A DNA stretch of 64,000 nucleotides from Isurus oxyrinchus (GCA_026770705.1 JANJGN010000131.1:372001-436000), one strand, 5' to 3'; positions 1,450-55,735 are shown, counted from the first letter of the stretch. Program-made: numbers and translations. Notes: generated by a model not told the origin, from the letters alone.

Positions 1450-2351
1450 TGAACATACTGACTATTGTGACCCTGTCTCGGGGAAAGTGCGGTCTCTCAA
1501 AATGTGTTTCCCTTTACCTGGTGTCCATGGCAACCGCGGATCTACTGGTCGTTATCCTTGATCTCATATTCAGGCAAATTGCTATTCTTTACTGGGCTCA
1601 GTTTCAGTTCATGTGGAGGTTTAAAGTGTGTAATATCCATGCAGTCCTGCTTTATTCAGCCACAGATTGTTCTGTCTGGTTCACAGTCTCTTTCACCTTT
1701 GATAGATTTCTGGCTATTTGTTCCCAGAAGTTGAAAACAAAATATTGCACCCAGCATACGGCGGCTGTGGTTCTCGGAACAGTCAGTCTGCTATTCTGTG
1801 TGAAGGATACATTCTGGTACTTTATGTATGTAGGTCAATATTCGCTTTCCAATGCTCCTTGGTTTTGCACATTAGTGACGGATGCTGAATTCTCATCAAT
1901 GTGGGCAGCAATCGAATGTCTTCATTATATTTTAACACCATTTGCGCCATTTGTTTTGATTTTGATGTTGAACGCTTTAACTGTCAGATATATTTTAGTG
2001 TTGAGCAGAGCCCGCAGGAGACTCCGGGCTCACTGCAGTGGGGAGAGACCCAGGGACCCACAGATGCAGAAACGCAGGAAATCCATCATTTTACTGTTTG
2101 CTTTATCTGGGAATTTTATCCTGTTGTGGGTAGTTTTTATGATAAATTCTGTTTGTAATAGGTTATATGTGTTAGATGCTATTCCTGCATACCTTCCTAG
2201 GTTTGTGCAGGAACTGGGATTTATATTTTAGCTCCTGAGTTGTTGCACTAACACGGCCATTTACGCAGTGACCCAGACTCAGTTCAGAAATGAGCTGAAG
2301 AATGTGGTGAAATATCCCTTTTCTGTAATTTTTAAATTTATTAAACAGTGA
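1450..2351 (+). pseudogene. GPR139/GPR142-like class A GPCR, exon 2, premature TAG in TM7 (locus 1; exon 1 not found in window)
   Basis: Polypyrimidine tract plus AG acceptor at 1448-1449 (phase 1). Motifs: LYLVSMATADLL (TM2), SVWFTVSFTFDRFLAIC (TM3), LTPFAPFVLILMLN (TM5), RRKSIILLFALSG (TM6). TAG at 2229-2231 stands where the intact paralog has CAG. The frame continues LLSCCTNTAIYAVTQTQFRNELKNVVKYPF to TGA 2349-2351. Confidence 0.9.
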
Positions 2352-3239
2352 CAAGAATATCCATTATCAATACGAGTTGACCCTGTTTTATTCCCAATCT
2401 CTTCACCTCGGTGATGAGCACAGGGTGAGGCCAGTTTTCATCTTTCACCGCCAGGATTCAATGACTAACAGAAACGGTGCATTTGGGAAGTAATTTACCT
2501 CAGTCCTGTTTGTCCTGCTGGTTTCCAGGCTATTCCAACTCTCTTGTTGTCCTTGGGCCTGGTGTGTGAAATTCCCACCCACCAGGCTCGAGTTCCATGT
2601 CATTACCCAAAGGGGCTTTGGAGGATAAGACCATTTGTGCAGGTTACAGTCCAGGGGCGGACATGCTGCAGTGTCTCCACTATCCCAGGGAAATCTTGTT
2701 CAAAACATTTCGGACCAACCTGCAGATGGGAGGGTGGGTTTTAGAGGTTCGAAAGTCAGTGATTTCAGCTTTTCAAAATCTTTCTGTGATTTTATTCCAG
2801 TGTTTTTAGAGCTGAACAGTCACAGTATCTCAGAGCGGGAAGTCTCCTCGTTTCAAATAAAGATTTATTTCCACTGCACAAGTTATGTTCCAGTGAAATT
2901 CGTCAATTCAAATGTCCCCTGAATTCATCTGCAAAAAGTATGTTCAGGAGAGGAGAGAGAGGGGGGCCAATGTGTTCGGAACTGAAATAAAAAACAGCAA
3001 TGCTGGGAATAATCAGCAGCCCTCGCTACCTTTGTGTAGCGAGAAACAGACTAATGCTTCAAGGGCTTCCATCAGTGTTGTGACACTCTTACGTGATCCA
3101 AAGGACTCCTGCTACTGCAGCAGTAACTGAAGCATGTCATTTCAAAGTGTGAGGTGTGGGGTGAGGGGCGCCGGCGACCTAAGTATGTGTTTTTTATTGT
3201 GGCGGTGGGGGTGGTGGGGGTGATGGAGTATAGAGTGAA

Positions 3240-4280
3240 ATATCAAACTTTGTCAGCATCTGGCCAGTGGGGAATTGGAAGGCTCACTACTTGAGAGCCA
3301 GCTGTTCACAACACATGAATGATTTGGATATGATCGCCAAATGTAATATTTCCAAGTTGGAGGATGACACAAAGCTTGGTGGGAACGTGTATTGTGAGGA
3401 AGGTGAAAAACGTTTTCAAGGCGATTTGGACAGACTTGGTGAGGGGGACAGAACAGGAAAGATGAAATTTAACGTGGAAGAATGCGAGGTTAACCAGCTT
3501 GGTAGGATCAACAGATGTGCAGATTATTTCATAAAACGTGAGAGCCTGGAAAATGTAGCTGTACAAGGGGGCCTGTGTACCCTCATCAATAAGTCTCTGA
3601 AACCTGGCATACATATGAAGCATTTAGGAAGGCGAAAAGAATGTTAGCTTCTCTCACAAGTGGATTTGAATACAGCCATAGTGAAGTCTCATTTCCTTTG
3701 TATATAATCTTGGTTAGGCCACCCCTGGGGTACAATGTGCATGTGTGGCCCCCTTACATTCGGAAGGGAGTCATTGTTATTGAGGGAGTGAATCGAAGGC
3801 TCACCAGATTTGCATCAGGGATGGCGTGACTGTCCTGTGAAGAAGGATTGGGGACACTGGACCTGTATTCTCCAGAGTTTCCAAACATGAGCAAAAAGAT
3901 CTCATTATAACAAACAAAACACCTGAATGGAAGAAAGTGTAAATGAAGGTCAGATGTTTCCCCTGGTCGGGGAATCTAGAAACAGGGGACACAATTTCAA
4001 AATAAGGGTAAAGCCACTAGGACTGACATGAGGAGAATTGTTTTTTACTCAGTGGTTTGCGAATGTTTGTATTTCTGCATCCCGGAGAGCTGTCGAAGCA
4101 CAATCATTGAGTATGTTTAAAGCAGAGAATGGCAGATTTCTAAATACCAAAGATATAAACGGTATGAGGATAGTGTGGGTGAAAGATGTTGAAGGAGATG
4201 ATCATCCATGATCGCAATGAAAGGTGGGACAGGTTCGATGGGTTGAATGGCATTCTCCTGTTCCTCTGTTCCGATGCGAT
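3240..4280 (+). mobile_element. CR1-like LINE ORF2 3' part, decayed
   Basis: ISKLEDDTKLGG, FQGDLDRLGE, MKFNVEECEV and LVRPPLGYNVHVWPPY match CR1 RT C-terminal motifs; frameshifts and stops are present. Confidence 0.9.
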
Positions 4281-4660: not shown

Positions 4661-5072
4661 CTTTTTAGCTCATCCACATCGTGACATTACCAATACACCA
4701 GGATCTCCCTTTGGGTGTGGAGGGGGCGGGGGCATAGCAGAGAATGCCTGGGATGATATTTACAGCGCTGGACGAACAACAGAAGAAAGTATGGATCCGC
4801 CAAAACACTAATTGTCTGTTCTCACTGGGGAACGGTTGTTCAGCTGCTCCAGGAGCTAGAAGTGTGTCGCTCACACATCCATTCTGCTGAAACAATAAGG
4901 ACACCCTGGTCTCGTTGCACATTCCCTTCTCTCAATTTATAGCCATTCAGATAATAATCTGCCTTACTGTTTTATCCCCATTATATTGCATCAATAAGCC
5001 ACTCCAAAATCTCATGTGCAATGACAGCGATTAAAAAAAATGCAGCCATGAGAGGAGGGAAGTCCTGAACAG

Positions 5073-5320
5073 TAAAAGCTAAATATTGCGGTTTCTGGAA
5101 ATCTAAAACTAAAAGAGAAACTGCTGCAAAACCTCAGCATGTCCAACATCACCTGTGGAGATAAAGACAGGATTAACGTTTTGAGTCTTTATGACTTTTG
5201 TTCAGATAAGAAGACTCTGAAGTAGAATCATGCGGGCTCGAAACGTTAGCCCTGTGGTTTTCTTCACAGATGCTTTATGAACTGTTGAGATTTTCCAACT
5301 TTTTCTGTTGTTGATTCAGA
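5073..5320. mobile_element. Palindromic Penelope-derived mini-element with two inverted decayed hammerhead-like motifs
   Basis: Left arm 'ctcagcatgtccaacatcacctgtggag...gattaacgttttgagtctttatgacttttgttcag' is the reverse complement of right arm 'ctgaagtagaatcatgcgggctcgaaacgttagc...cagatgct...ctgttgagattttcca'. Confidence 0.7.
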
Positions 5321-5650
5321 TGTCCTGATGGGCTTTGCGGTAGAGGAAGGGAGAGAGATTGGGAGAGAGACAGGGTTTAAGCAAAAACTCCACTCATTCA
5401 TAAATATCATTCCGAGTCTTGAAGATGTGTAGGTAAGTTTTCTCTGCCTAACCCTTCCTTTATTCAACAACATGGAACCTCGCGCCTGAACTCTGAGGAA
5501 TTGGAGAAAAGTGGCGCAGTTTCAGATGGATGATATTGGAAGATAGCAGGATATGAAGAGAAACTTCTGCTGTTATTCCCGTGATCGGGAGGCTCTGAAG
5601 TATCGTCTGACGAAACGATGAAGCAGGTAGAACGAAATCCCTGGGGTGAT

Positions 5651-5857
5651 AAATGCAAAATACTGCGGATGCTGGAAATCTGAAACAAAAATAAAATTGC
5701 TGGAAAAACTCAGCAGGCCTGACAGCATCTGAGGAGAGAGCAACAGAGTTGACCTTTCGAGTTCAGCTGAAGAAGGGTCATAACGACTCGAGAATCTGTT
5801 TCTGCCTCTGCAGATTCTATCAGACCTGCTGATATTTCCAGCGTTTTCTGTTTTCAC
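5651..5857. mobile_element. Palindromic Penelope-derived mini-element flanked by a 12-bp direct repeat
   Basis: Arms 'gctggaaaaactcagcaggcctgacagcatctg' and 'cagattctatcagacctgctgatatttccagc'; centre 'ctgaagaagggtcataacgactcgaga'; CCCTGGGGTGAT at 5639-5650 and 5858-5869. Confidence 0.75.
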
Positions 5858-8800
5858 CCCTGGGGTGATGTCCAGCGAGTTCAGGGAGATGGTATCAGTA
5901 GGAATGAGCTGATCAGGAATACAGTTCATTATCAAAGCAGAAGGGAGAATGACAGCGCTAATGGATTTAACAGAAAAGGTGGAAGTGGAGAGTCGGCCTG
6001 TGTTTACTGGAATAAGGGCCATGTATATGCTGAACGGAAAGGGGTGTGGCAGGGCGAGGTGCAGGCTGCGTCTGTTTGTGTATTTAAGAGAAAATGGAAA
6101 GGCAGTGTCTCAGTATCCGATCGGCCCCAGGATCTGTGAACAAGCCCCATGTTTATGGTTACTTGCAGCATAAAGTTGGACCCCATCTTTGAGTATTTTG
6201 ACGGTTTTGAACCCCCACCCCCCCCCCACCCCGCACCCCCCCCCCCACCCCCGTATGTCCAATAGACCTAATGCTCTGTAATAATTTGCAGGATTTGTAC
6301 TTAATAATACAGCAGTGCCAGACACGCCCCAGCCCCTGGAAACATCCCTTGGTTTGTGCTCCGTATTCTGCCTGTGTTATATATCTAGCCTGTGGCATCC
6401 CCACTTCAAAATGTTTAATCGGACATTGCAGAGGGATCTTGAACAATTTTCTGACCCTGATTGCACCAACGGTGGGAGTGTTTGATGGGGTATTTTAAAG
6501 GATGTTTTCTGCTCCAATTTCCTGTCCTATATCAGCCTCCGATGAAGCCGAACCCTACAGTTTAGAATTGCCAGACATGTGTCTGTGAGCGCCCAGAGTG
6601 AAATCACCGAGGTGACCCTCCCTGTTCAATCATTCCACCTCGGGCAATAGCCAGAACCAGGCAGAGGTAAAGGTCTCCTTACACGGATGGGGCGATGGGT
6701 GTAAACAGAACCCCGACAGGAATGGTAAAACAGGGAGAAATGTGTAACCGGGAAAATGCAGCGGTGTCGATGGGCCTTGGGGAAAGGAATTCAGCAAAGT
6801 CACAGTTAGTTCACTTTTCATTCCAGATTTATTAGTAATATCAGAGAATATTTCACAGGAAATTTTATTTTAAAGTTAACAGAAGTGAATATAATGCCTG
6901 AGGTCACGTTGGGAACAGAACACATGCGCTCTGATTTGGTAAATTGTATGTACCACTGGAACATAGATCAGAAAGAGAAAACTGAGGCTCAAAGGAAAGG
7001 GAAGGGGGTAATAACGAATAACGAATGAAAACGTTACTTAATTACAATTCAAATCCTAACTCCAGGGAAATTAGATGCTACAATTACATTACAACCATTT
7101 TCATCTCACACCTTTCATACATGAAATCGGAAATACTGCTACAGGTTCGGTTACAGATTCGGGATCACAAAGTGAAGACATTTCACCTTTAGAATCACCA
7201 AGAGAACAGATTTTATATTGGAATAGAGAGACCTGAAAAAACAGCTGAGGAAAAGCTACGAGGTCCAAATTCAACCGATCACTTGATCTGTAAAAGAAGG
7301 AGACAATAATGAAGCAGATATTTATGATCAGGTGCATTTATGTTATTACTTTTAATTGTTGAAATGTTTAGAAAATTTTCAGACCGCTTCTGCCAGATTG
7401 TAGCATGAGTGGATTGAATCTTCTCACCTTTACCAGAGTGACGGCAATGCTGTCGAAAATGCTCAGGAAGCACAGGACGATGAATGTTAGAGATTTTGTC
7501 CAGATGTTCCCGTTATCGTCCTCATAGCCTTCAATCCAGATGTGGTCTGTGGAATCTACACTGATATTACCGAGGGGTTGGCCAATGGGAACCTCAATTA
7601 ATCTCAGCAAAAAAAAAAATAACGACAAGAAATCATATAATACATTAAAAATTATGTGATGTCGGAATGAAGCTGGAATTTATCCATGTGAAAGTACCTG
7701 TTATTATATAGAAACAGATAACACTCACGAGGAGAAAGATGGAAAGCCAAGGTGTCACGTCGACGCCATTTCATCGGAACATTCACGTCTTCAGCATCCA
7801 GTGCCTTTTGTTATGTTTATGCCATTGCTTTTTTGACTTGTGCACGTTTGCCTACCATTTTATAGCCGTTTATTTAATTGAGGATAAAATTATTAATATT
7901 TTATTTCAGTTTTGCGGTAGCTAAATGGATAACAAAGTTTAGCATTGCACTGCACGGATGGAGGCCAGTACATGCATTATTCCTGTTCCTGAAAGTGCTA
8001 TTCCATTTGTCCGGTTCCAATGCTCTTTCTCATAGTAATTTATTTTCCTTTCTAAATAGTGATTCGTTTTTGGAAGAAATATTATCCAGTCTGCTTCTAC
8101 CACGTGTTCAGCTTGTGCATACACAGGTCACCATGAATAACTTATTTAAAAAGTCCAGATATCCCCAGTGGTTTTTTAACCGCTCCCACCAAAATAAAAC
8201 AAACAGAAAAGAAAAGCCGAGCGCAGGAATTGAATATAGTTATTACTACGGGTGCCAAGTAGGAGCGATAACCCATGGGGATAGCAACTTTAGCCACCAT
8301 TTACCACAATGGACTTGAATGAGCTGATCTCAGTGTTGGGAAGTATAGTATAAAACATTTGCGTACCACGCTAATTTAGGAAGGGCTGAGGTTTTGCTTA
8401 TGCTAAGGATAAATGTGACCAAATGCAAGAATATCAAAAACTCGTGAGGATAAATGGCAAAGTAATTTGATTCTGAACAAGATTGAAGTGGTGTAATTTG
8501 GTAGGAAGATTAAGCCGAGGAAATCTACTGGTTGGAAATTATTATCTTAAATGAGATTAAGACTCGGGGTCATCCAGAATGGTCGTGCTTCAAAAATCAA
8601 GGAATTCCCATTGAGATAAATGCCGCAACATTTGCAGATGATTGGGAAATTTCACCTGATTAAATGTTCCAAGATAAATTTTTCACGAATATGTCCACTG
8701 AATAGTCCACGCATGTTGACTGAAAGTCCAATCAGCACGTCCATAAAACTCCCCTAACACTTTTCAGTTTCGTTGATAGCTCATCGACCTGAAACAGTTA

Positions 8801-11659: not shown

Positions 11660-12810
11660 GGAACTTGACAGAACTTATTGCACAAGTTAAGAGCCCGTGG
11701 TATTGAGAGAAATGTAGTAGCATGGACTGAGGATTGGATAACAGAGAGGAGACAAAGAGTCTGGATTAATGGGTCCTTTTCAGAAGCGTTGGAAAGACGC
11801 AACAAATGGAGTGCCACAGTATCAGTCCTAGCACCTCAACTATTTATTAGCTATTGCAATGACTTGGAGGAGCGGACAGAGTGTGATGTATCCAAATTTG
11901 CTGATGCTACAGCAATAGGTGAGAAGACATGTTGTGAAAGGACATAAGGAATGTAAAAGGTGTTGTAGATAGGTTGAGTGAGTGAGCAAAAACACTTGGC
12001 AGATGGAGTTTAATGCTGGAAAGTGTGAGGTCATTCACTTTTGTAGGAAGAATCAAAAGACAGACTATTATTAAAATGGAGAGAGACTTCAAAAACGTGC
12101 AGGCTCTGATTGTTCCTGTGTACGAAGCACAAAACGTTAACATGCAAATGTAACAAGTAATTAAGAAGGCAAATGGCATTTTGGTCTGTGTTGCTAGGGG
12201 GTTACAGTTTAAAAAATAGAGAGGTCTTGTTACAAATATGCAGGATTCGGTGGGGCCCCACCTGGAGTGCTGTGAACGCTTTCGGCCCCTGTATTTAAGA
12301 ATTGATATATTGGCATCAGATGCAGTTCAAAGGGGATTCGTTAGGCTGATTCCTGGGATGATGGAGTTGACTTATCAGGAACGACTAAACACATTAGGAC
12401 TTTATTTATTAGCCCTTCGAAGAATGAGGAATGATCTTATTGAGACGAACAGAATCCTGAGGGGAGGGGTTGCTTGACAGGTAGATGTTGAGAAAATGTT
12501 CGCTTTAGTGGGGGAATCTCGAGCAAGGGGACATAGTTACATAATAAGGGGCCACACATACAAAATGAGTTGCGAAGGAATATCTTCTCTCTGAGAGTAT
12601 TGAATGTCTGGAATTCTCTACCCCAGAGAGTTGTGGAGGCTTGATCTCTGAAGGTATTTAAAGAAGAGATGGATAGATTTTTGAAATATCGTGAGTTGAG
12701 CTTCATGATGAGCTGTCAGTAAAGAGGATTTGAGGCCTGGTGCAGATCAGCCATGATGTTATTGAATGGCGGGGCAGGCTTGAGCGGCCTAATGGCTTAC
12801 TGCTGTTGCA
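11660..12810 (+). mobile_element. CR1-like LINE ORF2 3' part and tail, decayed
   Basis: LHKLRARGIE...WTEDWITERRQRVWING, SVLAPQLF..NDLEE..VSKFADAT, VGPHLECCERF and LRRMRNDLIET. Confidence 0.92.
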
Positions 12811-19348: not shown

Positions 19349-21717
19349 TCATTTAAAAAATTTAACAATCAGACTCAATGGATATTTCACACCATTCTTT
19401 AACTCCTCTCTGAATTTACTCTGGGTACCTGCCTAAATAATGGGGTTGATGCAGGAACTTAAAAGCTACAGCATAAGTCCGCATTCTTCCAGTATAACAT
19501 TTGATTGATTGAAATTCGAGCCATCGAAATAACTAACGCTGGCAATTCGTGCGTAGAGGAAAGTTATAAGAGCGAGAAAATATAACAGGATGAAACTTCC
19601 CGAGATGGCAAAGAGTAAAACGATGGACCTTCTCCTCTTCTCCATCTCTGGGTCGCTTTGTTTCTCGCTCTTGCTGTGGGCTCGCAGTCTTCTGCGGGCT
19701 CGACTGGCCACAACAATGTGCCTGACCGTCAGAACATTGAGCAGCAAAATAAGAACGAATGGGAGACAAGGGGTTAAAACGGCATTTATGCTGTCATATG
19801 CCACCCATCCGGGTGACAAATAATATATTGGCTTTAGTTTGCAGTACCAGGGTGTATTGTCCGTGATAACAGAATGTTCACAAGCAAAGTACAAGGGTAT
19901 TTTTTTAGCACAATGCACAACGCAGACAGTTCCTATGACCACAGCTGCCGATTTCTTGGTGCAATATTTGGTTTTCAGCTTCTGACAACAAATGGCTACA
20001 AATCGATGAAAGGTGAAAGCAACTGTCACCCAGACAGAAGAATCCCTGACGCCATATATGAACACAAGACTAAGAGCAAAGGCCGGAGTGATGGAGAGGA
20101 AACTGAATGGGAAATATGTACCTACAATCCGGTTTAACATCACAGCAAGGATCATGATCAGGAGATCCGTCACGGCCATGGACATCAGGTAGTATGTGAT
20201 ACATCCAGTGAGACCGCATCTTCCTCGAGACAGGATCACAATTACTGCCAAATTAGCTGTGACAGAGGAATATAACCAGTAGGTTTGCGGTGGGGACAAA
20301 TGAATATAGAACAGGAAATGTTGATAAACTCACAAATACAGCATTGGTCATGAAAAGAGAGCAATGTTCCCATTTCAGTCCTATGACTTATATGCTCCAG
20401 TGGAGAAAGAAAGACTCTTTCCAAAATGCAGCAAATTGTCAATACTGTGCTGATTTACAGGAAGAATGCAGGCTCGGCCCTATAGTGAATATTCAAATTG
20501 CTGCATTGTTACTCAGTTAAATGAAAAACGATCAAATATCCTCCTGCTTGCTGTTTAGAGAAGAACAGGCTAGGACATTGGAAACAGAAAGGTACGCAAT
20601 ATTAAATCGACCTAAGAATTTGACAGAAACTGAGTAGATGGCGTTGAATGGAATTAAATACAAAGTGTTACTTTTGTGGGCATAATCCAGCAAATGAGAA
20701 CAGCTAAAATGAAAAAAAAAACTCCTTTGGAAGGAAATAAAAGGTAACTAAAACTCCTGAGTTATGATGACGTGCAGTGAACACAACTGTCCTTCACAGC
20801 AGGGAGGAAATCCACACACATTTTAATGTCCAGTTGCTGTTAAATTGAAAGACGTCAAGCTTTAGAATCAAAATGGCCTGGATTCAAGCCCAACTTCAGC
20901 TCCCTGAGAATTCCTCTCCGCCCAGGGTGCCAGGTTTCCGCTAAGGCAAGAAACCCTGGGCCAGTCATTTAATATTCAGCACAGATTTATCAGATAAATA
21001 CTGTTCATATTCCAGCGAAATGTTAAAGGGAAAAGAATGAGATAATGCATAATACAAATACAATTCCTCTGTAATAATTCACCCACGGTGACAATGCCGT
21101 TGAAACAATAGAAAAACCTTTCCTCAGTGGTAACAGCGTTATACATTACGCTTTTTGAAAAATACCAAGAATAAAATAAAAGAACATCTAAAACCTCGAA
21201 CGGTGGCAGTTAACAGATGAAAGTGTCCAATTAAACTGACTAAATGTTACTAGCTCAGGGAAGATAGTGCATTGTCACTGCTGAATTATTATTCTTGCAT
21301 TGGGGAGAAACTATGTTCAAGGGAAGAAATGACACAGTCAAACTTGAGCGACTCGGCATGTGATGACGACTAATCATGTCAGTAAAAGAAAACAATTGTG
21401 TTGATAAAATGGAGAATTAAATTAAGCATTTCCCTTGAAGTGGAAAAAAGTCACATTGTCGAGGGTGATAAAGTGGGACGATGTCGCCGTAATGTTGATA
21501 GATTGTTCTGTTTAATGGGAGAACGAATATCGTACCATGTAGAAGCAAAGCTCCTAAATACGAACAATGATTCACTAAAATGAAAGCAAACCAAAGAGAA
21601 GTGATTAAACAATGATTTCAATAACATAGCAAACCAAAATACTTAACCTGGAATCCCGATCGCTGCAATGACGGGATAATATATGATGAAAATAAGACCT
21701 TTTGGCAATCCGTGCAT
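19349..21717 (-). pseudogene. GPR139-like GPCR pseudogene (locus 2): exon 1 21717-21648, exon 2 20256-19349
   Basis: The 70-nt exon 1 encodes MHGLPKGLIFIIYYPVIAAIGIP and ends at a GTTAAGT donor; the acceptor is CACAG. The 7TM frame has DRF changed to HRF, TAG at 19466-19468 (TM7 Gln) and a second TAG replacing the Tyr of NPIIY. Normal end is TGA 19349-19351. Confidence 0.92.
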
Positions 21718-21764
21718 TTCTGTCACCAGCTGCGAGTGTGTTCTGCACCACAACTAAAGACAGT

Positions 21765-21866
21765 CAGAGATATATCTCAAGCCAGCCTCCAGGGAGACAA
21801 TTAGACGCTTTGATCTTTTGCAATAATTACGCTAATTGAAACAAAGATGCTCGTGCTGCAGCTGAC
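21765..21866 (-). promoter_or_regulatory. Conserved promoter of locus 2: E-box, TAAT sites, HD plus O/E-like composite, TATA-like element
   Basis: Minus strand: CAGCTG 21864-21859, CTAATTG 21804-21798, TCCCTGGAG 21795-21787 (-78 from ATG) and GATATATC 21776-21769. Confidence 0.7.
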
Positions 21867-22784
21867 AGGAAATTATTTTTATTTTGACGGAGTAGAAGGC
21901 TCTTCAAGCTCACTGACATTGTTCTGGAGGAACATCCTCACAAAGTGCCCTTCTGTCTTCCACATTAACACAAACCTACATTGATGTTTCTTTATCATCT
22001 GTCCTTTACCACAACCGTTTCCCGCCGCTATAGTGAAAACAAGAACTCTTCCATTGCTACCTACTCCCCAACTTCGATGTAAAGTCATGGATCTGAACCT
22101 TTTACCGTTTTCTCTGCACAGATGCTGAACGGTCTATTGCGTATTTCCAGCATTTGCTGTCTCATTCTGTTCGCATTTGGTATGGAAATGTTCAACTCAT
22201 CACCTTTACTTAGCTTTCAAGTACTCAAATCTTCTTCACGGCTTCTTGCAGTGTGGATTATTCCATATCAGTTAAATTCATTGCAGACATGTCAAATCCA
22301 GTTGTAGTGATTGTGCATAGCTGTGTAGCTGTGAACGGCTACGTTTTACTTGGTCAGATGCAGTCAAGCGCTTATGCGTTAATTCTGCATAATTATAGAG
22401 AGTACGCTTAAACTCCGTAAACGGAGGTCCAGTTGAGCACGATTCTAGTTAATGTGGATCGTTCCAGTTCGGTATGGTTATGTGATGTGTCGAGGCTCCA
22501 TTTCTGCCACGTTACATTAATTCATGACGGATAAGGAAGGGTAAATGTGCACGTCCTTTTCCCGTAAATCGCTTTCCGTGGCGCCAGGCGAGATTATGCA
22601 CGGCTGCACTAAGTCTGCAAAGGCCCAGTTCAGTCATCTTGCAATGAATATGGACAGGCCCCATTTTAACTGCTATCTTCAATGCGCACATGTGAAGCAG
22701 TGTTATAAATCTTGTGCAGATAGTTAATTCCTCATGCTTTCTTCAGTGTGCGGAAAAAATTATCCACCGAAATATTGAAAATAG

Positions 22785-23713
22785 GAGTAGGATTACTCCT
22801 TCGAGCCCTTCGAGCTTGCTCCGCCATTCAGTTTGATAATGGCTGTTCCTCTATCTCAACGCCTTAGTCAGGCATTCTCCCCATACCCCTTGATGCATTC
22901 GAAGGCTAGAAGTCTATTTATTTACTTCTTAAATATATCCAGTGACTTGACCTCCACAGCTTTCTGTGCTAGAGAATTCCGCAGGTTCGCCACCTTCTGA
23001 TTGAAGACGTTTCTCGTCATTTCAGTCCTAAATGGTCTACCCCGTATCCTGAGTCTGTGACCCCTTGTTCTAGACGCCCGAGCCAGAGGAAATATCATCC
23101 CTGCACCAGCCTGTACATCCCTGTCAGAGTTTCATATGTTTCAATGCGATCGCCTCTCATTCTTCTGAGCTCCAATAAATAAAGGACTAGCCGGCCCAAT
23201 CTCTCCTCATAGACAATTCTACCAGCCCAGACATCAGCGTGGCGGACCTTTGCTGAACTCCCTCTACAGCAAATATATCCTTTCTTAGGTAAGGAGACCA
23301 GAACTGCACACTCTACTCCAGGTGTGATCTCACAATGACCATGCACAGCTGCAGTAAGACATCGTTGCTGCTGCTCTCAAATCCTATCGCAATAAAGGTC
23401 AACGTACCATTTACGTCCTTAACTGCTTGCTGCACCTGCATGCCTGGTTTCAGTGATTGCTGCGTAAGGGCATCTCGGTCCCTTTGCACATCAACATTTC
23501 CAAATGTATCACCAGTTAAATAATATTCTGCCAATCTGCTTTTCCTGCCATAGTAGATAACCTCACACTTATTTTCCCAATCACTCAACCTACGTAAGTC
23601 GCCTTGAAGCGTCTGAACACTTGCCTCATCGCTCACATCCTCACCAAGTTTCGTGTCATCAAAAATTGGAAATATTGCCTGTTGTTGCGTCATGCAAATC
23701 ATTGATATATCTA

Positions 23714-23764
<51 letters not shown>

Positions 23765-32507: not shown

Positions 32508-32665
32508 CTAACTAGCTGACTATCGTGATCCGTTCCAGAGGAAGATGTGGTCTTTGCAGATACGCAGAGTCCATGGCGGTGACAGATCTCCATGTTATTA
32601 TCATTACACTGATATTAAGCCGGTTTACGGCTGTTTATTTTCCAGTCAGTTTTCTGAACCACTCA
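32508..32665 (+). pseudogene. GPR139-like exon-2 5' fragment (locus 5)
   Basis: After the AG at 32506-32507 it reads (A)N*LTIVIRSRGRCGLCRYAESMAVTDLHVIIITLILSRFTAVYFPVSFL, homologous to TM1-TM2-ECL1 of the paralogs, then breaks off. Confidence 0.85.
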
Positions 32666-33570: not shown

Positions 33571-34859
33571 GACTAATGTAATCCTGGCCTTAACTCCATT
33601 TTCCTGTCAGACTGAGTAACCATTGGATCTCTTGTCGATCAATAATTTGTCTAACTATGCCTTGAATATATTTAGTGCCCCTGCCGTCTCTTGTTTTCTG
33701 GAGAAGACAATTCCAAAGTCTCCAGAACCTCCTCATCCCCTGGTACTTTGCCTATGAACCTTCCTTTATCATTAACAATAGACCTGGATTTTGCCGTGGA
33801 AAATCACAATGAATAAAATCTCTCCGGCCGAGATCAGTCTGCACTGAAAATCATGCTACAGAACTGCAATTACGCAAATTGAATGTAACCTCACTGATCA
33901 AGACATCTGCACACGAAGCATAGCTGCTGGGAAATTAAAAGGTTCACAGTGATCCATTGGGACTGTCCACCACAGTGAACCACAGAAGGTCAAATTAAAA
34001 GTAAGAATGCAGAACTAAACCAGTCCAGTCTGAATGCAAATGTCCATGTACACATTTATTAACACCGAGCTGACTTTCATAAATCTACACGAAACATAAC
34101 CATGCTCGGCCAGTCCTGTCTCCATCGAATACAGCAGTAATGAAATTGATTATTCTATATGGAATGTAATCACGCTGAAGTGAAATTTTCCACTGCAAGA
34201 AAGAAAGTGTTCACAGCCGGGGCTGTGCACATTGTACGTAGTTGTCTTCCACCGGACAAAGTTGACAATAATCGGGCAAAAAGTCGTCCATATACATCAG
34301 TGTAACAGGATAGAAATTGGCCTGTTCGTCCTGAGTGCAGCTGTGCACAATTTAACCTGAATGCAGTGAATGCAATTTCCTTTTCAAATCTCACAATGGC
34401 AAACTATGAAACAATGTAACTTCATCTGAAACAGATGGAAATGGGTTTGTACTCGAAAGAGTTACTGAACTGGACAGTCACACCAGCGTGATAATCTCCT
34501 AAACTGGTTTTCCACTAAACAGTGATTGCTAACGAGCTGAACAGGACTTTCTACATGGTATATAACCATGTTGATTTGGAGCGCTCCATCATTAATTTAA
34601 TCATGCTCAACAGGAGGTTGTCTTCTCTGAATGTGAGTGGACTGAGCTTAAACTGAAAGCACCAAGCACACACGTCCTGAACTGGATCTTGCCACACAAA
34701 ATGTAAATTCACACACCTGTGCACTTTCGTTATTGCCAGGATTGACATGGCTACACTAACTGAATTGAACTAGTCCACAATGGAAGTAACCGTGCCAAAC
34801 CAGGCATGCGCACAGTGAATATGACCGTGCTGAGCTGCACATTTCTACACTGAATGTAA

Positions 34860-36480: not shown

Positions 36481-36728
36481 ACATTACACGTGATCCATGT
36501 ACACACGGGCTGAAAAATGATCAAGACTGAGAACTTTGTAATGTTTTCTTGCGGGGTTTAAAGCCATGGATGTTCGTGCATAGTGCTCACTTTCACAATT
36601 ACAATGGCTTATTTGGCTTGTTATTTAAATTTTAGGAAAAAATGCAACTTGGACCGTACTCTCCTGTCGCGCCAATGTCCTTGAAAACAGATTCCATTCC
36701 ATCAAAAATATAAACGCGAGCGTGGCAG

Positions 36729-36825
36729 CAGCTGCACTAAAATGTTTTTTTCAGTTAGTGTAATTAATGTAAAAAGCCAAACCTTCTCATTGTCTCCCTA
36801 GAGTCTGACATCATGTATAAATCTA
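36729..36825 (+). promoter_or_regulatory. Conserved promoter of locus 3: E-box, TAAT sites, HD-like plus O/E-like composite, TATA box
   Basis: CAGCTG 36729-36734, TAATTAAT 36761-36768, CTCATTG 36786-36792, TCCCTAGAG 36795-36803 (-78) and TATAAA 36816-36821 (-57). Confidence 0.7.
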
Positions 36826-36872
36826 ACAGTCTTTCGGTGTAGCACAGAGCCCACTTGGAGCTTATGAGAGAA

Positions 36873-39100
36873 ATGCATGGGATACCAAAAGGTCTGGTGT
36901 TCGCCATTTACTATCCCATTCTTGCAGCTATCGGTATTCCAGGTAAAGTATTAGGGTTAGTTACCAGTTACCAGAATGATTTTTCACTCTATCACTTCTT
37001 TAATTTAGTTGTACTGCTTCTCTATGATTCACCCCATTAACAGGATAATTTGTTTTTTTATAATGTTTTCCCTTTTTTGCAGTAGCCTTATCTCCAACGT
37101 TTGGTGCATTCTTCTTTTAAATGAGATTTAACCTTCCCTTTCCTTGCAATATTACTGGTCATTACTGGTCTCTTTTCTCCACTTTAAGGCTACAATTTCT
37201 CCCCTTCACGAGAACAGTTTCTTCCCATTGCCACTATACTTACTTCCATTTCAGGGATTACTATGTTTGCTTCGTCAATGCCGTTTCATCTCTTTAAATA
37301 AAACTTTTCTGCCAACTTAGCAGTGCCGCCTCTCAGTCTAAACGTAATTAGATGTTGTTATTGTCATTATCAATGTGGGCGAAGTATTTAGCACACTAAT
37401 ATCACAGTGCAATGTAAATCAATTGTATTATTGACACTGTCACCATGGCTGATTTATCACGCTGTAAATGTAGCTCTATGGTGTTATTGACACAGCTGTT
37501 GAATTACCTCACTTTGCCATGTGCATATATTGCTCCTTGCGCTGGAATGTGAATAGCAGCAATTTCTTAAGTAAGATTTTGTATTCACGACCGGTCCTCA
37601 GTCTTTTGTTTTAGCTGAAATATAGCATATCGGGCAGTGCAACGTTGCTGAAGTCCAACAGTTGGGCTTGAACGCTAAACCTTTTGACTCAAAAGTGAGA
37701 TTGCTGTAAGCTGAGTCATAGTAAGCATGATTAGCTTTACTCGTGGCTGTGAAGCCTTGTTCCTTTAACTTCGAATTGTTACAACTCAGATGCATCACAT
37801 CTCCTTCATCTTCTTTTCAGTTAAGTAGTAGCTTTTTTTTTGCTGAACTTTTTTCAAGCTCTATAATGTATTTGTTAACCTTCGATTTTCCAATGTTTCA
37901 GAGTATTGTTACATTTTCCCGTCTCTAAACGTTGAATGAGAACAACATTGACTGTATTTCAGGGTCACAATGCAGGACGTTCAATGTTCACCTTGAGTTG
38001 GCCCTTAGTGTTGCTGATAGTACAGAACAGATTGCTGTGTTTTAGGATATTTTCCTCCAGATCATCTTTCTGACATGCTAACTTGTTCCTCTCTTTTCAA
38101 CTGCTGCCTGACTGAGAATTTCCAACATTTTATATTCTAAATTTCTTTCCCAAAATTGGTTATTCGCTGGCTGCGTTTCGCTGTCACAGCTAATCTGGTC
38201 GTGATTGTGATACTGACTCGAGGAAGATGCGGTCTCTCCAAATGTATCACTTACTACTTGATGTCCATGGCTGTGACGGATCTTCTTGTCGGGATCACAG
38301 TTGTGATATTAAACCGGATTATAGGTATTTATTTCCCGTTCAGTCTCCTGGCCATCACTCCGGTCTTCAGCCTCAGACTTGTGCTAAATTATGGAGTCAT
38401 CGATTCTTCTGTCTGGGTAACAGTGGCTTTCACCTTTGACCGATTTGTAGCCATTTGCTGCCAGAAGCTGAAAATTAAATATTGCACTGAGAAAATGGCG
38501 GCTGCGGTGATAGCAACTGTCTCTGTACTTAACTGCGTTAAAAGCATTCCCTTTTATTTTATGTGTGAACCTGCCTTTATCATTGACAATATACCCTGGC
38601 AATGCAATTCAAAATCAATATTTTATACGGCACCTGAATGGGTCGCTTATGAAAGCATAATCGCCGTTTTAACCCTTTGCCTCTCCTTCTTCCTTATTTT
38701 ACTGCTCAATGCTCTGACCATCAGACACATTGTAGCGGCCAGTCGAGCCCGCAGGAGACTCCGGATCCAGAGCAATGGAGAGAATCAAAGTGACCCAGAG
38801 ATGCAAAAGAGAAGGAAATCCATGGTTTTGCTCTTCTGTATCTCGGGCAGTTTCATCCTGTTACATTTGTTAAGACTTATAAACTTCCTCTATGTCCGAA
38901 TTGCGAATCTTAGCTATGTAGACTCTACCAATTTCAATGAATCAAATTTTCTTATGGAGGAAAGCGCACGTATGCTTCAGCTCCTGAGTTCTTGCATCAA
39001 TCCGTTTATTTATGCAGGGACCCAGAGTAAATTCAGAGAAGAGTTAAAGAATGGTGTGAAATTCCCATTGAACCTGCTTGTTAAATTATTTAAAAGATGA
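36873..39100 (+). CDS. Intact GPR139/GPR142-like class A GPCR (locus 3), join(36873..36942,38190..39100), 326 aa
   Basis: Exon 1 encodes MHGIPKGLVFAIYYPILAAIGIP with a GTAAAGT donor; acceptor CACAG at 38185-38189; 70+911=981 nt open. Motifs: GIPAN, YYLMSMAVTDLL, SSVWVTVAFTFDRFVAIC, RRKSMVLLFCISGSF and LLSSCINPFIY. An in-frame upstream ATG lies at 36864 and AATAAA at 39105-39110. The family is recognised from motifs; this is a paralog, not an assigned GPR139 ortholog. Confidence 0.93.
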
Positions 39101-46549: not shown

Positions 46550-47940
46550 CATTGGTCCCAATCTCTCGGAATCGTTCTCATGTTTTTTGCCCGGTTCAGC
46601 ATAAGAGGGCCGACAAGATTTTGTCTCGATGGTGTTTATGTGCCATATATTTCCTGGCCTCTAGGAATTAGCCTATGGTTGTGCCAACGGTAATATCAAT
46701 GTTATATATCGGCTCTGCAACTGCTCTGCTTTGTAAGTGTTTAGCCGGACAGTGCGGGGGGGTGGGGGGGGGGGGGGGGGGTGGGGATGGGGGGGGGGGG
46801 TGCGGGGTTGGGCGGTGGTGGCGTGGGTGGGGGCAGTTTACTCCGCGCCTAACCAGAGCTGTAGAGGCCTGGGAATATTTTATGTGATATGTAAAGAACG
46901 TATTCTTCCTCAAACATTGTGCTGCATTAACCTCTGAAGAAGAGTGCCTTTATTATTTAGAACGACCCGTCGCTGACTGTGACAGATCAGAGACGTCACT
47001 GAGTTGCTCTTCGCCATTCCATCATTCTGCTTCTGGTTTTTACCATAAAAGGGAAGGGGAAAACATCTCTTTACATGGGTGGGGCGTTGTGTGGTGAATC
47101 GCGCTTTGACTGAAGGGCCTCAAGTTCAAACACTTTGCAGACAGGAATCGTGATAAATACCAGTCGGGAAAGGAGGAAAACGTGAAATAGGGAAAATGCA
47201 GCCATGTCGATGAAGCGAGGAGAAATGAATTCAGCAAACTCATACTTGGTGCAATTATCATTTAAGATTTATTAACAATTTCAGAGCATGTTTTGTAGAA
47301 ATAGTTCATTTAAAGGTCACAAAAGTGAATTTATCGTTTGAGCGTCACATCGAGACAACCCCATATGCTCTGAGCTGCCAACTGTAAGTAGAAGTGTAAC
47401 ATAGGCCAGAAAGAGAAAACAGAAATTTAGCATAAAGGGAAGGGGACAACAGCGAAAGAAAAGACATATTTACAAATGCAATTCAAGCTATAGTGAAATT
47501 ATAAGCGACAGTTATTTTAAAATAATAATTATCTCGCGCATTTCAGACAGAAAGGCGGAAATACTGTCCACGAATGTCTTAATTACAGATTCAGAATCAT
47601 AAAATGAAGACACTTCACTGTTAGCGTCACCAGGAGAACATATTTTAAAGTCATAATACAGAGATCTCAATAAACAACTGAGGAACAGCCAAGGAGGTCC
47701 GAAAATCAACCGATCACTTAAACTGTAAAAGAGGTTACTAACACCACAGCCGTTCTTGCTTTACATTCCACGTGCTGTCCGTATCAGTACATTGTATTTT
47801 TAAAGATTCAGTGCCAGTGTGTTTTGGATCAATTTCATATGACCTATTACTGGATTACGCAGGAAAATTAGTAGTTCAAAACGGTTATTTTAACGACAGG
47901 TACTTATGGCTACTAATTGCAGGCTCTGTAGCTCTAGCTA
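46550..47940 (+). repeat. Copy C (most diverged) of the unidentified low-copy repeat
   Basis: 'gggaaaatgcagccatgtcgatg', 'gaattcagcaaac' and 'caaccgatcacttaaactgtaaaag' match copies A and B; 47820-47940 matches 60430-60560. Confidence 0.85.
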
Positions 47941-52473: not shown

Positions 52474-55400
52474 TTATCGTCCAAATAATTTAACAATTTC
52501 AAGTAGTGGATATTTCACCCCATTCTTTAACACCTCTCTGAATTTACTCTGGTCCCTGCATAAATAAACAGGTTTGCGCAGGAACTCAAAAACTGAAGCA
52601 TGTATGCTTTTTCCTCAAGAATGAATGTTGAAAGATTGATTTCCGAGCTTGATAAGTATTTAACATTTCCAATTTGCACATAGAGGAAAGTTATAAAAAG
52701 TAACAAATATAACAGGATGAAACTTCCCGATATACAGAAGAGTAAAATGATGGACTTTTTCCGCTTCTCCATCTCAGGGTCACGCTGATTGTCTCCATTT
52801 CTCCGGGTCTGGAGTCTCCTGCGAGCTCTACTGGCTGCGAGAATGTGTCTGACTGTCAGTACATTGGGCAGTAAAATCAGAATGAATGGGAGACAAGGGG
52901 TTAAAATGTGATGAATGCAGTCATAGGCGATCCATGCAAGTGAGGTATAAAATATCACTTTTACATCGCAGAACCAGGGCACATTGTCAACTATGTACAA
53001 AGATTCGTATATAAAATACTGGAAGGTGTTTTTGACACAGCTGATTGCGCAGATTGTCCCTATAACTCGTGCCGCCGTTTTTTTGGAACAACATTTTACT
53101 TTCAGCTTCTAGCAACAAATGGCCACAAATCGATCAAAGGTGAAAGCTGTAGTTAACCAGGCAGAGCTGTCTATGGCTGAATATATTAGGGCTTCACGGA
53201 GACTGCATACTGGTGTGATTGACAGGAAACTGAGTGGGAAATAAATAGCAGCAATCCGGTTCAATATCACAGCGGTTATAATGAGCAGGGGATCTGACAC
53301 CGCCAGGGATTGTAAATAATAGGTTATACAGGTGGAGATACCGCATTTCACTCGAGAAAGGATCACAATCACCGCCAGGTTAGCTGCAATAAAGAGAGAG
53401 AGAGAAAGAGAGAAGTTGGAAAGAGACTGAGTTTGTGTGTGTGTGAGTTTGGGATAGAACGAATACAGGAAGGTTACTGCTCAAACTATAAACAAATCAA
53501 CAATTGTATAGGATTCTGCATGAATTTGTACATTTGAGATGTGTTCCCCAGTTGCACAATTGCAATGGGCAAGTGTTTCAGCTTTGTAAATTGAAATCTT
53601 AATTCAATATAGGGCAGGTCAAAGTTATATGAATGTCAAATATTTTAATAAAAACTAATGGAGAACAAAAGACATCGTTAACACTAAGAAACCAACCTAG
53701 AAGTTTTGTATAAGCAAGAAGAAAGTGTAAGCATCTGCAAGGCATTGCAGGAAATAATGACGAAGGTAAGTAACAAAACAAGCAACAAGAAGTGTGGAAA
53801 TTAACAAGGGCGTGGATTATATCTCACTGAAGATCAATATAGTTCCTTTCCTATATAATAATTGGCAATAATTATTGAAAATTATTCGTTGTTGTGAACT
53901 TTGGGAATTAAACCTGCTCAAAAATATCGACATAAAGCGAGGAGTAAAGGGGCAATGAATGAGTTCTGATCTTCCAGACAGGGCGTTTGCCTGCATGTGA
54001 AGATACATCCTAGCTCCTCACATATAGTCAACTGGAAGATTGGTGTCGATCTGAACCTTTGGAAATGGCGGAAGCCGAAGTCTCCTTCCGAGTGAGGTCC
54101 CTCTTGCAATGCAGCACTGACTCCGTACTGCACTGCACTGTCGGGATCAACTATCAACGTTGTCCTGTAATGGATATTTCAAATCAAAACATTGCGCCTG
54201 GGCTGTGAAAGATGCAGCCAAGTAGGCAGCCTCATTCAATATGGACAAACAGCCGAGACGGGAAAATGTGGGACATTGCTCGGTGATATCAGCAGAAGGA
54301 AATTCCGGCGTCATCAGTGGTCAAGTCGAAGCATCAGCAGCAGTTGAAGAACCAATTAGTGTTGGAGACTGAGAGCAGAAACACACCTCTGTGATCGTGG
54401 TGCTAATATAGAATATTCATCAAAAGTCTATTATTACATTGTTCATACATCTGTCAAAAACCGGGTGCTCATGATGTCCTTCCATCAAATTCATTGGGGG
54501 AATATTGAATGTTACATTGCTCTCTATCAATGAAACATTCGTGAGAATTGTTCGATCATTGTCATTGTGAACAACACAACAGATTTACATTTGCACCGTG
54601 AAAACAGTGTGATAGCTCATCCACAGTTCGACTGTCAGTAACAGAAGATGATCCATTTCACAGTGTGTTTAAAGTGTGATAGCATAACCACAGTTCGACT
54701 GTCAGTAACAGAACACGAACATATTCATACTGTGATTAAAGTGTGATCACTCAACCACAGTTAGACTGTCAGTAACAGAAGGTGATCACATTCACACCGT
54801 GATTACAATGTGATAATTCACCTTCAGTAACGATACCGGAAACACAATGGAAAAACATTTAGACTGTAATGTCACTGTTAAAATACACCTGCAGTAACAG
54901 AAGACAATTACACTTGCACCGTGATTACAATGTGATAATTCACCTTCAGTAACGATACCGGAAACACAATGGAAAAACATTTAGACTGTAATGTCACTGT
55001 TAAAATACACCTGCACTAACAGAAGACAATTACACTTGCACCATGATTACAATGTGATAATTCTCCTTCAGCAACAATGCCAGTAACAGAATGGAAAGGC
55101 AATTGCACTGTGATAACAGTGTGAAAATACACCAGTACTAAATTGTGCAAAACACCGTTGAAGACGGTAATATAATACCACTTACAACAAAAAATTACAC
55201 CCTTATAAGGGGGATGTTATACCGCTAACAACGAGAAATTTCACCCAGAACAGGGTAATATTTTTCCATTAACAGCGAGAAATTGCACACTTTGCAGGGT
55301 GATATGATAGCACTTAAATTGTGAAATTTTGTTTTTAACTAGGTTATATTATGCCACTAACAGCGAAGAATTGCACCTTTCATAGCATATTATTAAGCCA

Positions 55401-55735
55401 TTAGCGGCGAGAATTTTAGGCAAAGGGAACAACTTATATTGTCAAAATTGAGACATTATACCTATAAAGTGGGTAAAATGTTCTTTTAGAGGGGTAAAAT
55501 ATACTTGTTAAAAGAGGGAAATTGCTCCATTAATGGGGAGAATTGTACAGATAAAGGGCGAAATGGGAGAATGGGTATAACGTTATGGATATACAATGCT
55601 TTTAAAAGGTAGAATTCCTGCAGATAACCGATTTCCGTATCAAAATACTAATTACAATACTTTACCTGGAACCCCGAGAGCTGCAAGGGCTGGATAATAA
55701 ATGGCAGACAGAAGGTCTTTTGGTGATCCATGCAT
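52474..55735 (-). pseudogene. GPR139-like GPCR pseudogene (locus 4): exon 1 55735-55666, exon 2 53383-~52474
   Basis: The 70-nt exon 1 encodes MHGSPKDLLSAIYYPALAALGVP with a GTAAAGT donor; acceptor TTGCAG. TAG at 53109-53111 directly follows DRFVAICC, and the same frame continues through TM4-TM7. A 1-nt deletion after IYAGT shifts the tail. Confidence 0.92.
54590..55130. repeat. Intronic tandem repeat: 67-bp units changing to 122-bp units
   Basis: 'ccacagtt(c/a)gactgtcagtaacagaa' at 54621, 54688 and 54755; 'gattacaatgtgataatt' at 54801, 54923 and 55045. Confidence 0.92.

What the first reader, a model, noticed from the sequence alone, without database searches (positions are those of the whole stretch)
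1450..55735. Birth-and-death cluster of five GPR139-like GPCR loci, only one intact
SEEN: five loci in 54 kb in mixed orientation (+,-,+,+,-). One is intact, three carry nonsense or frameshift lesions and one is a fragment. Intracellular motifs (SRGRCGL, DRFVAICCQKLK, SRARRRLR, DPEMEKRRKS) are highly conserved, while TM3 outer half, ECL2, TM5 outer half and ECL3 diverge. Locus 1 is a clearly more distant subfamily. KNOWN: GPR139 and GPR142 are low-copy genes in mammals; clustering, high pseudogene load and variable ligand-facing regions typify chemosensory and immune receptor repertoires. INFERENCE: a lineage-specific receptor radiation with diversified ligand pockets.
Basis: partly seen in the sequence, partly recalled or inferred. 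Interest (0 to 1): 0.75.

Follow-up and report, generated by a model that had tools for sequence, protein, structure and literature searches.

The report
Large overlooked shark receptor gene family
This stretch of shark-type DNA holds five copies (one unbroken) of an orphan cell-surface receptor from a family with over a hundred variants in at least one shark species; their variable binding pockets and shared promoter suggest an overlooked sensory repertoire, but where they are expressed is untested.

Summary
In detail: five class A GPCR loci (+,-,+,+,-), one open, three with stops or a frameshift, one fragment, and no sixth. They are not GPR139 orthologues (35.7 bits to human GPR139). They belong to a well-supported clade that NCBI auto-labels 'probable GPR139'. 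All 240 listed nearest hits are elasmobranch; 122 distinct members come from Heterodontus alone, against 20-62 known olfactory receptors per cartilaginous fish (PMC10869828). In subfamily A, pocket positions evolve at 1.56x the protein mean, against 0.48x in the nearest single-copy vertebrate gene. In locus 1's subfamily the deep pocket is conserved. Regional dN/dS stays below 1 within subfamily A. New here: three genes share a promoter with homeodomain-like, Ebf-like and TATA-like sites at fixed spacing, the layout of olfactory-receptor promoters (pattern chosen post hoc). IgM membrane-exon remnants are interspersed. The one open gene has lost P5.50 and C3.25 and may be drifting. Best reading: an undescribed chemosensory repertoire (0.5); immune, internal-sensor and drift rivals remain. 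Nine literature searches found no description. Expression and ligands are untested.

The parts
1450..2351 (+). L1 exon 2, subfamily B GPCR; premature TAG at 2229-2231 before TM7; exon 1 not found in the window
   Evidence: 78% to Heptranchias P0121
19349..20256 (-). L2 exon 2, subfamily A pseudogene; TAG 19468-19466 and 19435-19433, D3.49H, C3.25F with Cys149
21648..21717 (-). L2 exon 1 (short N-terminus and outer TM1), GT donor, 1391-nt intron
21718..21917 (-). L2 conserved promoter block; homeodomain-like plus Ebf-like element at 21786-21803
32508..32659 (+). L4 fragment, start of exon 2 (TM1-TM2) with an early stop and deletions; no exon 1 or promoter found
33735..33809 (+). L4 second remnant (TM4/ECL2), separated from the first by about 1 kb of unrelated duplicated DNA
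36671..36872 (+). L3 conserved promoter block; CAGCTG at -144, homeodomain-like plus Ebf-like element at 36787-36804 (-86), TATA-like at -57
36873..36942 (+). L3 exon 1, GT donor, 1247-nt intron
38190..39100 (+). L3 exon 2; the only open gene (326 aa); lacks P5.50 and C3.25, carries Cys149
52474..53383 (-). L5 exon 2, subfamily A pseudogene; TAG 53111-53109, 1-nt frameshift near 52555
55666..55735 (-). L5 exon 1, GT donor, 2282-nt intron
55736..55942 (-). L5 conserved promoter block; element at 55804-55821
7279..7555 (-). Interspersed Ig heavy-chain mu-type membrane exons: TM1 7555-7428, 140-nt intron, TM2 7287-7279 (context, not part of the GPCR genes)
59892..60168 (-). Second Ig mu-type membrane exon pair: TM1 60168-60041, 140-nt intron, TM2 59900-59892 (context)
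47714..47730 (-). Third, partial copy of the same block: TM2-like exon only (context)

Best explanation
The window is a slice of a tandem array of an elasmobranch-expanded family of class A GPCRs, distant kin of GPR139/142 and of a single-copy vertebrate orphan. SHOWN: copies arise by duplication, stay under purifying selection (overall dN/dS 0.29-0.39) and die by stops and frameshifts; the cytoplasmic face is held constant while, in subfamily A, pocket-lining positions change fast; three genes keep the same core promoter. INFERRED: the family works as a chemoreceptor repertoire. Different copies bind different small ligands (amino-acid- or peptide-like, by analogy with the clade) and feed one shared G-protein pathway. 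The homeodomain-like, Ebf-like and TATA-like promoter drives expression in sensory cells, most likely olfactory neurons. Tissue, ligand and G protein were not tested.
For: Size: 1824 clusters at E<=1e-10 among 4988 candidates (only the top 120 seen); 240 of 240 listed hits are sharks (239) or a ray (1); 127 are Heterodontus, 122 distinct below 95% identity; Heptranchias 66, 60 distinct. Clade of 48 sampled rows with support 100 (LG+G4) and 97 (mixture model). Species-specific subclades. Outer-half entropy 1.12 against inner 0.69 in subfamily A. Site rates at 29 canonical pocket positions are 1.56x the core mean in subfamily A, against 0.48x at 28 positions in 87 named orthologues of the single-copy gene (paired p=6.5e-6). 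Outer dN/dS 0.39-0.49 against inner 0.18-0.22 among L2, L3, L5. Promoter: 101 of 208 columns invariant against 23 of 200 further upstream; elements at -86 and -57 in all three genes. A homeodomain-core plus Ebf-dyad pattern matches with 8 mismatches in total, reached by 0 of 4000 column shuffles; the published OMP Ebf probe site by 1 of 4000; four recalled immune motifs are not enriched. OR promoters carry O/E, homeodomain and TBP motifs (PMC12547500, passages). Nematode Srw chemoreceptor clusters are among the feature look-alikes (score 0.95; a lead only).
Against: No expression or ligand data. In subfamily B the deep pocket is conserved (0.68x). In subfamily A pocket positions are not significantly faster than other outer-helix positions (p=0.088). 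No regional dN/dS above 1 within subfamily A; only saturated comparisons with L1 reach about 1, with wide intervals. The promoter pattern was picked after seeing the sequences, and the three promoters share one ancestor. The spacing is 2 nt where the published composite has 1 nt (13 of 300 shuffles at 1 nt). The published degenerate composite pattern does not discriminate (708 of 1000 shuffles). Window-wide the pattern has 6 hits against 5.7 expected. EBF and E-box sites also run B-cell genes (EBF: reference title; E-box recalled). Catshark olfaction is reported to rest on V2Rs (PMC10116579, passages), and the top 50 genes of a brain-plus-olfactory library held no GPCR (PMC11979771, passage). 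IgM exon remnants lie within the array. L3 itself may be decaying.
Confidence: 0.5

Rival explanations
1. Immune receptor repertoire: a leukocyte-expressed family sensing microbial or damage-derived peptides, working like formyl-peptide or MRGPR clusters (analogy recalled), possibly co-duplicated with immunoglobulin clusters.
For: Three copies of an IgM-type membrane-exon block lie between the GPCR genes. EBF is needed for B-cell differentiation (reference title), and the promoter also keeps a CAGCTG E-box. Birth-and-death and variable pockets fit immune families equally well.
Against: No octamer, NF-kB, ISRE or PU.1-like motif is enriched in the promoter block (122, 488, 111 and 287 of 500 shuffles). 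The Ig pieces lack constant domains and RSS in the stretches tested and may be passengers of segmental duplication. No Ig membrane stretch occurs in the stored homologues. The Ebf-like site abuts a homeodomain-like core.
Confidence: 0.2
2. Internal nutrient or neuropeptide sensors (gut, skin, brain), an amplified version of the GPR139/142 and MIP/FMRFamide-receptor role rather than an external sense.
For: GPR139 is the best solved relative; protostome MIP, FMRFamide, proctolin and myosuppressin receptors share an origin with GPR139/142 (PMC8514136 and PMC11004728, passages). Subfamily B keeps a conserved deep pocket.
Against: An endogenous ligand predicts a conserved pocket and few copies, as in the single-copy control (0.48x); subfamily A shows the opposite, with over 100 copies in one species.
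Confidence: 0.15
3. Mostly genomic drift: a duplication-prone array in which copy number is nearly neutral and outer-surface variation reflects relaxed constraint, not a repertoire.
For: 4 of 5 loci here are broken and the fifth carries unusual substitutions. Regional dN/dS stays below 1 within subfamily A. Unrelated DNA is co-duplicated. Gene-model fusions with unrelated neighbours (hemopexin, integrin, sodium channel, trypsin) suggest scattered copies.
Against: Inner-half dN/dS of 0.18-0.26 and a promoter far more conserved than the DNA further upstream show long purifying selection. Two subfamilies persist across sharks and a ray. Loss of C3.25 goes with a new ECL2 cysteine in two separate lineages.
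Confidence: 0.15

Closest known systems
Human GPR139 (PDB 7VUG, 9M42) and GPR142
   Same: Best solved-structure sequence hit for L3 (35.7 bits) and for the family profile (61.4 against 47.7 bits for the next); class A fold.
   Different: Weak similarity; the fold search does not single it out (rank 5, not among the 50 shown). P6.50 is rare in the family (12 of 120 in subfamily A). Over 100 copies instead of one. No tree with GPR139/142 could be built.
Single-copy vertebrate orphan (Latimeria P0347 group; possibly one of the GPR210 subtypes of PMC6504862, identifiers not matched)
   Same: Closest named non-family relative (196 bits; 32% identity); also lacks P6.50; also auto-named 'probable GPR139'.
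   Different: Found across sharks, sturgeon, teleosts, amphibians, turtles and squamates, with no mammal or bird among the named hits listed. Sharks keep their own orthologue in a separate clade (support 99-100). Conserved pocket. Sister placement to the family is model-dependent (88, not recovered).
Vertebrate OR, TAAR, V1R and V2R repertoires
   Same: Tandem arrays, pseudogenes, species-specific clades, variable pocket, short N-terminus, and a promoter with homeodomain-like, O/E-like and TATA-like sites.
   Different: Not members by sequence: only Pfam 7tm_1 is hit. The coding region has a TM1 intron. Olfactory expression is untested. Cartilaginous fishes have only 20-62 genes in those four families (PMC10869828, passage).
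Nematode srw chemoreceptors
   Same: A large expansion from the same broad peptide-receptor branch (recalled); Srw-bearing clusters are among the feature look-alikes.
   Different: No Srw Pfam hit for the window proteins; an independent expansion if related.
Lhx2/Ebf composite motif of mouse OR enhancers (PMC5608512)
   Same: A TAATT-type core directly followed by a pyrimidine-then-purine Ebf-like site; L2 and L5 fit the published degenerate pattern with 1 mismatch, L3 with 2.
   Different: The Ebf dyad sits 2 nt, not 1 nt, from the core; it lies in a proximal promoter, whereas the composite is depleted from mouse OR promoters (PMC11643329, passages).

Membership tests
Class A (rhodopsin-like) GPCR | Pfam 7tm_1 above cut-off | tested here: met
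   L1 61, L2 60.2, L3 70.6 bits, cut-off 30.5
Class A (rhodopsin-like) GPCR | Seven-helix bundle | tested here: met
   AlphaFold model of L3 exon 2, mean pLDDT 78.7; Z about 24 to class A structures
Class A (rhodopsin-like) GPCR | N1.50, D2.50, D/E-R at 3.49-3.50, N7.49, Y7.53 | tested here: met
   Present in L3 and near-invariant in 240 relatives
Class A (rhodopsin-like) GPCR | TM3-ECL2 disulfide (C3.25), P5.50 and P6.50 | tested here: inconclusive
   C3.25 in 238 of 240 relatives but absent from L2 and L3; P5.50 in 236 of 240 but absent from L3; P6.50 in only 12 of 120 of subfamily A
GPR139/GPR142 orthologue | High sequence similarity to human GPR139 | tested here: not met
   35.7 bits, E 5.8e-8; other non-orthologous relatives score 59-80 bits
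GPR139/GPR142 orthologue | Placement inside the GPR139/142 clade in a tree | not testable with these tools
GPR139/142-related receptors, broad sense | GPR139 is the best human receptor match | tested here: met
   61.4 against 47.7 bits among PDB sequences; limited to receptors with solved structures
Single-copy vertebrate orphan (P0347 group) | Orthology (same clade as the shark single-copy gene) | tested here: not met
   Separate clades, support 97-100 and 99-100
OR / TAAR / V1R / V2R / T2R | Family profile match | tested here: not met
   Only 7tm_1 at E<=0.1 or 1
Chemoreceptor-type repertoire (works like) | Tandem clusters, pseudogenes, lineage-specific clades | tested here: met
Chemoreceptor-type repertoire (works like) | Excess variation at pocket positions | tested here: inconclusive
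   Met for subfamily A (1.56x against 0.48x), not for B (0.68x); A pocket against other outer helix p=0.088
Chemoreceptor-type repertoire (works like) | Positive selection at ligand-facing sites | tested here: inconclusive
   Pairwise regional dN/dS 0.46-0.75 within subfamily A; four coding sequences only; no site model
Chemoreceptor-type repertoire (works like) | Homeodomain + O/E + TATA promoter | tested here: inconclusive
   Conserved at fixed spacing; 0-1 of 4000 shuffles, but post hoc and one ancestral origin
Chemoreceptor-type repertoire (works like) | Sparse expression in sensory neurons; response to external ligands | not testable with these tools
   No expression data; the catshark supplement could not be read
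Lhx2/Ebf composite motif | 1-bp spacing between the two sites | tested here: not met
   Best fit at 2 nt (8 mismatches); 1 nt gives 15 (13 of 300 shuffles)
Ig heavy-chain mu membrane exons | TM1 exon with the IgM transmembrane motif, GT-AG intron, two-codon TM2 exon | tested here: met
   6 of 6 and 6 of 7 PDB hits are membrane IgM, best E 0.0021 and 0.00085; exon structure
Complete IgH cluster | V, D, J with RSS and constant exons | tested here: inconclusive
   None in 123 further ORFs or in 60170-63999 read through; RSS at chance level; heavily broken exons elsewhere checked by motif only

The most novel reading that the evidence does not exclude
This is an unrecognised vertebrate olfactory receptor family, derived from the GPR139-related peptide-receptor branch, larger in some sharks than all their known olfactory families together and run by OR-type Lhx2/Ebf promoter logic. 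It would fill the gap between sharks' large olfactory organs and their small known repertoire.
Probability: 0.3. Interest if true: 0.93.

Novelty: new variant of a known kind. Interest (0 to 1): 0.74.

Why it matters
Cartilaginous fishes are described as poor in GPCRs (PMC8455134, passage) and as having many olfactory neurons but only 20-62 olfactory receptor genes (PMC10869828, passages). A family with at least 122 distinct members in one shark, hidden under an automatic 'probable GPR139' label, challenges the first statement and offers a direct test of the second: existing tissue RNA-seq and one in situ experiment would decide it. If it is immune instead, it is a large unrecognised innate receptor family. 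Either way it would be a second case of this peptide-receptor branch turning into a large repertoire (the nematode case is recalled, not tested).

Tried and rejected
Further GPCR loci: the duplicated stretches 30790-31652/32708-33565 and 5033-7575/57653-60188 looked like candidates, but the family profiles do not hit them; the second turned out to hold Ig membrane exons. L1 exon 1: not found by profile, nhmmer or short tBLASTn. Fold searches confirm class A but cannot rank relatives. Sister relation to the single-copy gene: 88 under LG+G4, lost under the mixture model, and the bootstrap tree did not finish, so it is not claimed. Naming of the deep unnamed representatives (for example P0338) was not possible, so the family's range outside elasmobranchs is open; no chimaera or bony-fish member was seen among named hits. 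Greek-Island composite: rejected as membership (spacing; non-discriminating pattern). The -86 element as a branch point plus splice acceptor: fits L3 only, L5 has no AG there and the branch point would be too close (splice rules recalled). Stop-codon readthrough: three stops are TAG at glutamine positions and L1 and L2 share the same codon, but L2 and L5 carry further lesions, so independent C-to-T changes are simpler. No Rfam match. RSS at chance level. Literature: nine searches found no description; the library lacks most subscription journals. PMC11979771's supplement was unreadable, files 13-24 of PMC8455134's 24 were not searched, PMC13188829's 8 files had no hit, and bioRxiv supplements were closed; expression tables there could bear on the tissue question. 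The bacterial, phage, plasmid, viral and metagenome collections were not used.
Full report
1. Observation. Labels follow my scripts: L1, L2, L4 (fragment), L3 (open gene), L5 in positional order. tBLASTn and profiles built from 240 homologues, run over six frames with stops as X, give five loci and no sixth. L1 (+, exon 2 at 1450-2351) has one TAG before TM7 and no exon 1 in the window. L2 (-) has two TAGs and D3.49H. L4 (+) is two remnants. L3 (+) is open, 326 aa. L5 (-) has a TAG and a frameshift. The three complete genes share a 70-nt first exon and a phase-1 GT-AG intron in TM1. Identities are 63-72% among L2, L3 and L5, and 47-49% to L1. Inner halves are more alike than outer halves in all six pairs. 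The open gene is atypical: 16 departures at 141 conserved columns against a median of 5, including loss of P5.50 and C3.25; the comparison set is 84 of 120 Heterodontus, so lineage effects inflate this, and 5 of the 16 are shared with L2.

2. Identity. L3 finds 1824 clusters at E<=1e-10 among 4988 candidates, L1 1815 among 2753; only the best 120 of each were listed, with no overlap. All 240 are elasmobranch (239 sharks, 1 ray), nearly all auto-named 'probable GPR139'. Of these, 127 are Heterodontus (122 distinct below 95% identity) and 66 Heptranchias (60 distinct); these are lower bounds from predicted gene models. About 62 of the 84 Heterodontus hits to L3 (hand count) and the nearest Heterodontus relative of L1 list the same 59.5-Mb contig length, suggesting both subfamilies also share one array there. 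The tree shows species-specific subclades; L2 and L3 are sisters (94) and L1 lies in a second subfamily. Human GPR139 is the best solved relative but weak (35.7 bits single, 61.4 profile, next 47.7). A profile search of 50%-identity representatives (135 hits at E<=1e-30; best 150 listed) reached a closer outside gene at 196 bits. It is a Latimeria protein whose relatives span sharks to squamates and may be one of the GPR210 subtypes of PMC6504862 (passage; identifiers not matched). In a 66-row tree the family is one clade (support 100 and 97) apart from that gene, which has its own shark orthologues. Their sister relation depends on the model.

3. Variation. Entropy is 1.12 in the outer half against 0.69 in the inner half in subfamily A, and 1.25 against 0.58 in B. 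Helix limits and generic numbers were set by motif and agree broadly with the AlphaFold helices. As a control I used 87 named relatives of the single-copy gene (33 unnamed hits left out). Pocket positions run at 0.48x the core mean there, 1.56x in subfamily A (paired p=6.5e-6) and 0.68x in B, where the loops vary instead. Within A the pocket is not significantly faster than the rest of the outer helices (p=0.088). Both family sets were chosen by similarity to the query. Pairwise dN/dS is 0.29-0.39 overall, and 0.39-0.49 outer against 0.18-0.22 inner among L2, L3 and L5. It never exceeds 1 within subfamily A. So the broken copies were constrained for most of their history, and positive selection is not shown. 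One structural detail: only 2 of 240 relatives lack C3.25, and both carry a cysteine at position 149, as do L2 and L3; only 1 of the other 238 has it, in the same Heterodontus clade. The two groups are separate on the tree. A replacement disulfide within ECL2 is the likely reading; I did not measure it on the model.

4. Promoter. About 200 bp upstream of L2, L3 and L5 is conserved (101 of 208 columns invariant against 23 of 200 beyond), with CAGCTG at -147, -144 and -147, an element at -86 and a TATA-like site at -57. The element is a TAATT-type core followed by an Ebf-like site. A pattern of that layout has 6 window hits (5.7 expected), and 3 are these sites; 0 of 4000 column shuffles match as well, and 1 of 4000 for the published OMP Ebf probe site. 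Against this: I chose the pattern after seeing the sequences; the three promoters have one origin; the published composite has 1-nt spacing, which fits worse (13 of 300); and the published degenerate pattern is reached by 708 of 1000 shuffles. Mouse OR promoters carry O/E, homeodomain and TBP motifs (PMC12547500, passages), but EBF also serves B cells. This is a lead, not proof.

5. Neighbours. A 2.5-kb block occurs at 5033-7575 and 57653-60188, and partly at 46738-47918. It carries Ig mu-type membrane exons: 6 of 6 and 6 of 7 PDB hits are membrane IgM (best E 0.0021 and 0.00085), each with a 140-nt GT-AG intron and a two-codon TM2. No constant domain or RSS was found in 123 further ORFs, in the last 3.8 kb read through, or by motif. 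Other intergenic stretches were not scanned through stops. The rest includes LINE reverse-transcriptase remnants.

6. Mechanism and rivals. Most likely a chemoreceptor-type repertoire: constant cytoplasmic face, diversified pockets, shared sensory-type promoter (0.5). Birth-and-death, constraint pattern and promoter conservation are shown; tissue, ligand and G protein are inferred. Rivals: immune repertoire (0.2), internal peptide or nutrient sensors (0.15), near-neutral array (0.15).

7. What is known. Papers seen as passages: PMC11979771, PMC6504862, PMC7270403, PMC10869828, PMC8514136, PMC11004728, PMC8455134, 10.1101/2022.10.17.512540, PMC10116579, PMC5608512 (plus two supplementary tables), PMC7804114, PMC12547500, PMC11643329; PMC13188829 by supplement search only. 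None describes this family in the passages seen. Nine searches found no description, within a library that lacks most subscription journals. The genes are in public annotation under a misleading name; the family as such appears undescribed.

8. Verdict. New variant of a known kind (a lineage-specific receptor repertoire). Interest 0.74; if it proves to be an olfactory family (probability 0.3), 0.93.

Noticed in passing
window 7279-7555, 59892-60168, 47714-47730 (all -): Orphan immunoglobulin mu-type membrane exons inside a block duplicated three times among the GPCR genes; no constant or variable exons found in the stretches tested.
   Followed up: partly
window 21718-21917 (-), 36671-36872 (+), 55736-55942 (-): Conserved core promoter with E-box, homeodomain-like plus Ebf-like element and TATA-like site at fixed distances from the ATG.
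   Followed up: yes
L2 and L3, residues 83 and 149; P0011, P0058, P0065: Loss of the TM3 cysteine goes with gain of an ECL2 cysteine in two separate lineages, suggesting a swapped disulfide.
   Followed up: partly
window 2229-2231 and 19468-19466: L1 and L2, from different subfamilies, carry a TAG at the same TM7 glutamine codon; L5's stop is also at a glutamine position.
   Followed up: partly
L3, residue 251 and relatives: The family and its nearest single-copy relative largely lack the class A TM6 proline (P6.50).
   Followed up: partly
window 30790-31652 and 32708-33565: An 80%-identical 0.86-kb duplicate of unknown nature; one copy splits the fragment locus. No GPCR-profile, Pfam or Rfam hit.
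   Followed up: partly
P0347 group: A single-copy orphan GPCR from sharks to squamates, mis-named GPR139 or TMEM183A isoform in databases, with no mammal or bird among the named hits listed.
   Followed up: partly
window 54606-55141: 67-bp and 122-bp tandem repeats fill part of the L5 intron.
   Followed up: no
window 17195-17623, 23316-24050, 3234-3647, 11669-12477: Degenerate LINE reverse-transcriptase remnants (Pfam RVT_1 E=0.0014 for the first; the others by eye).
   Followed up: no
window 36864-36872: An in-frame upstream ATG could add three residues to L3.
   Followed up: no
P0253, P0302, P0314, P0335, P0364: Database gene models fuse family members to hemopexin, integrin, sodium-channel, trypsin and uromodulin-like domains, probably annotation artefacts from scattered copies.
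   Followed up: no
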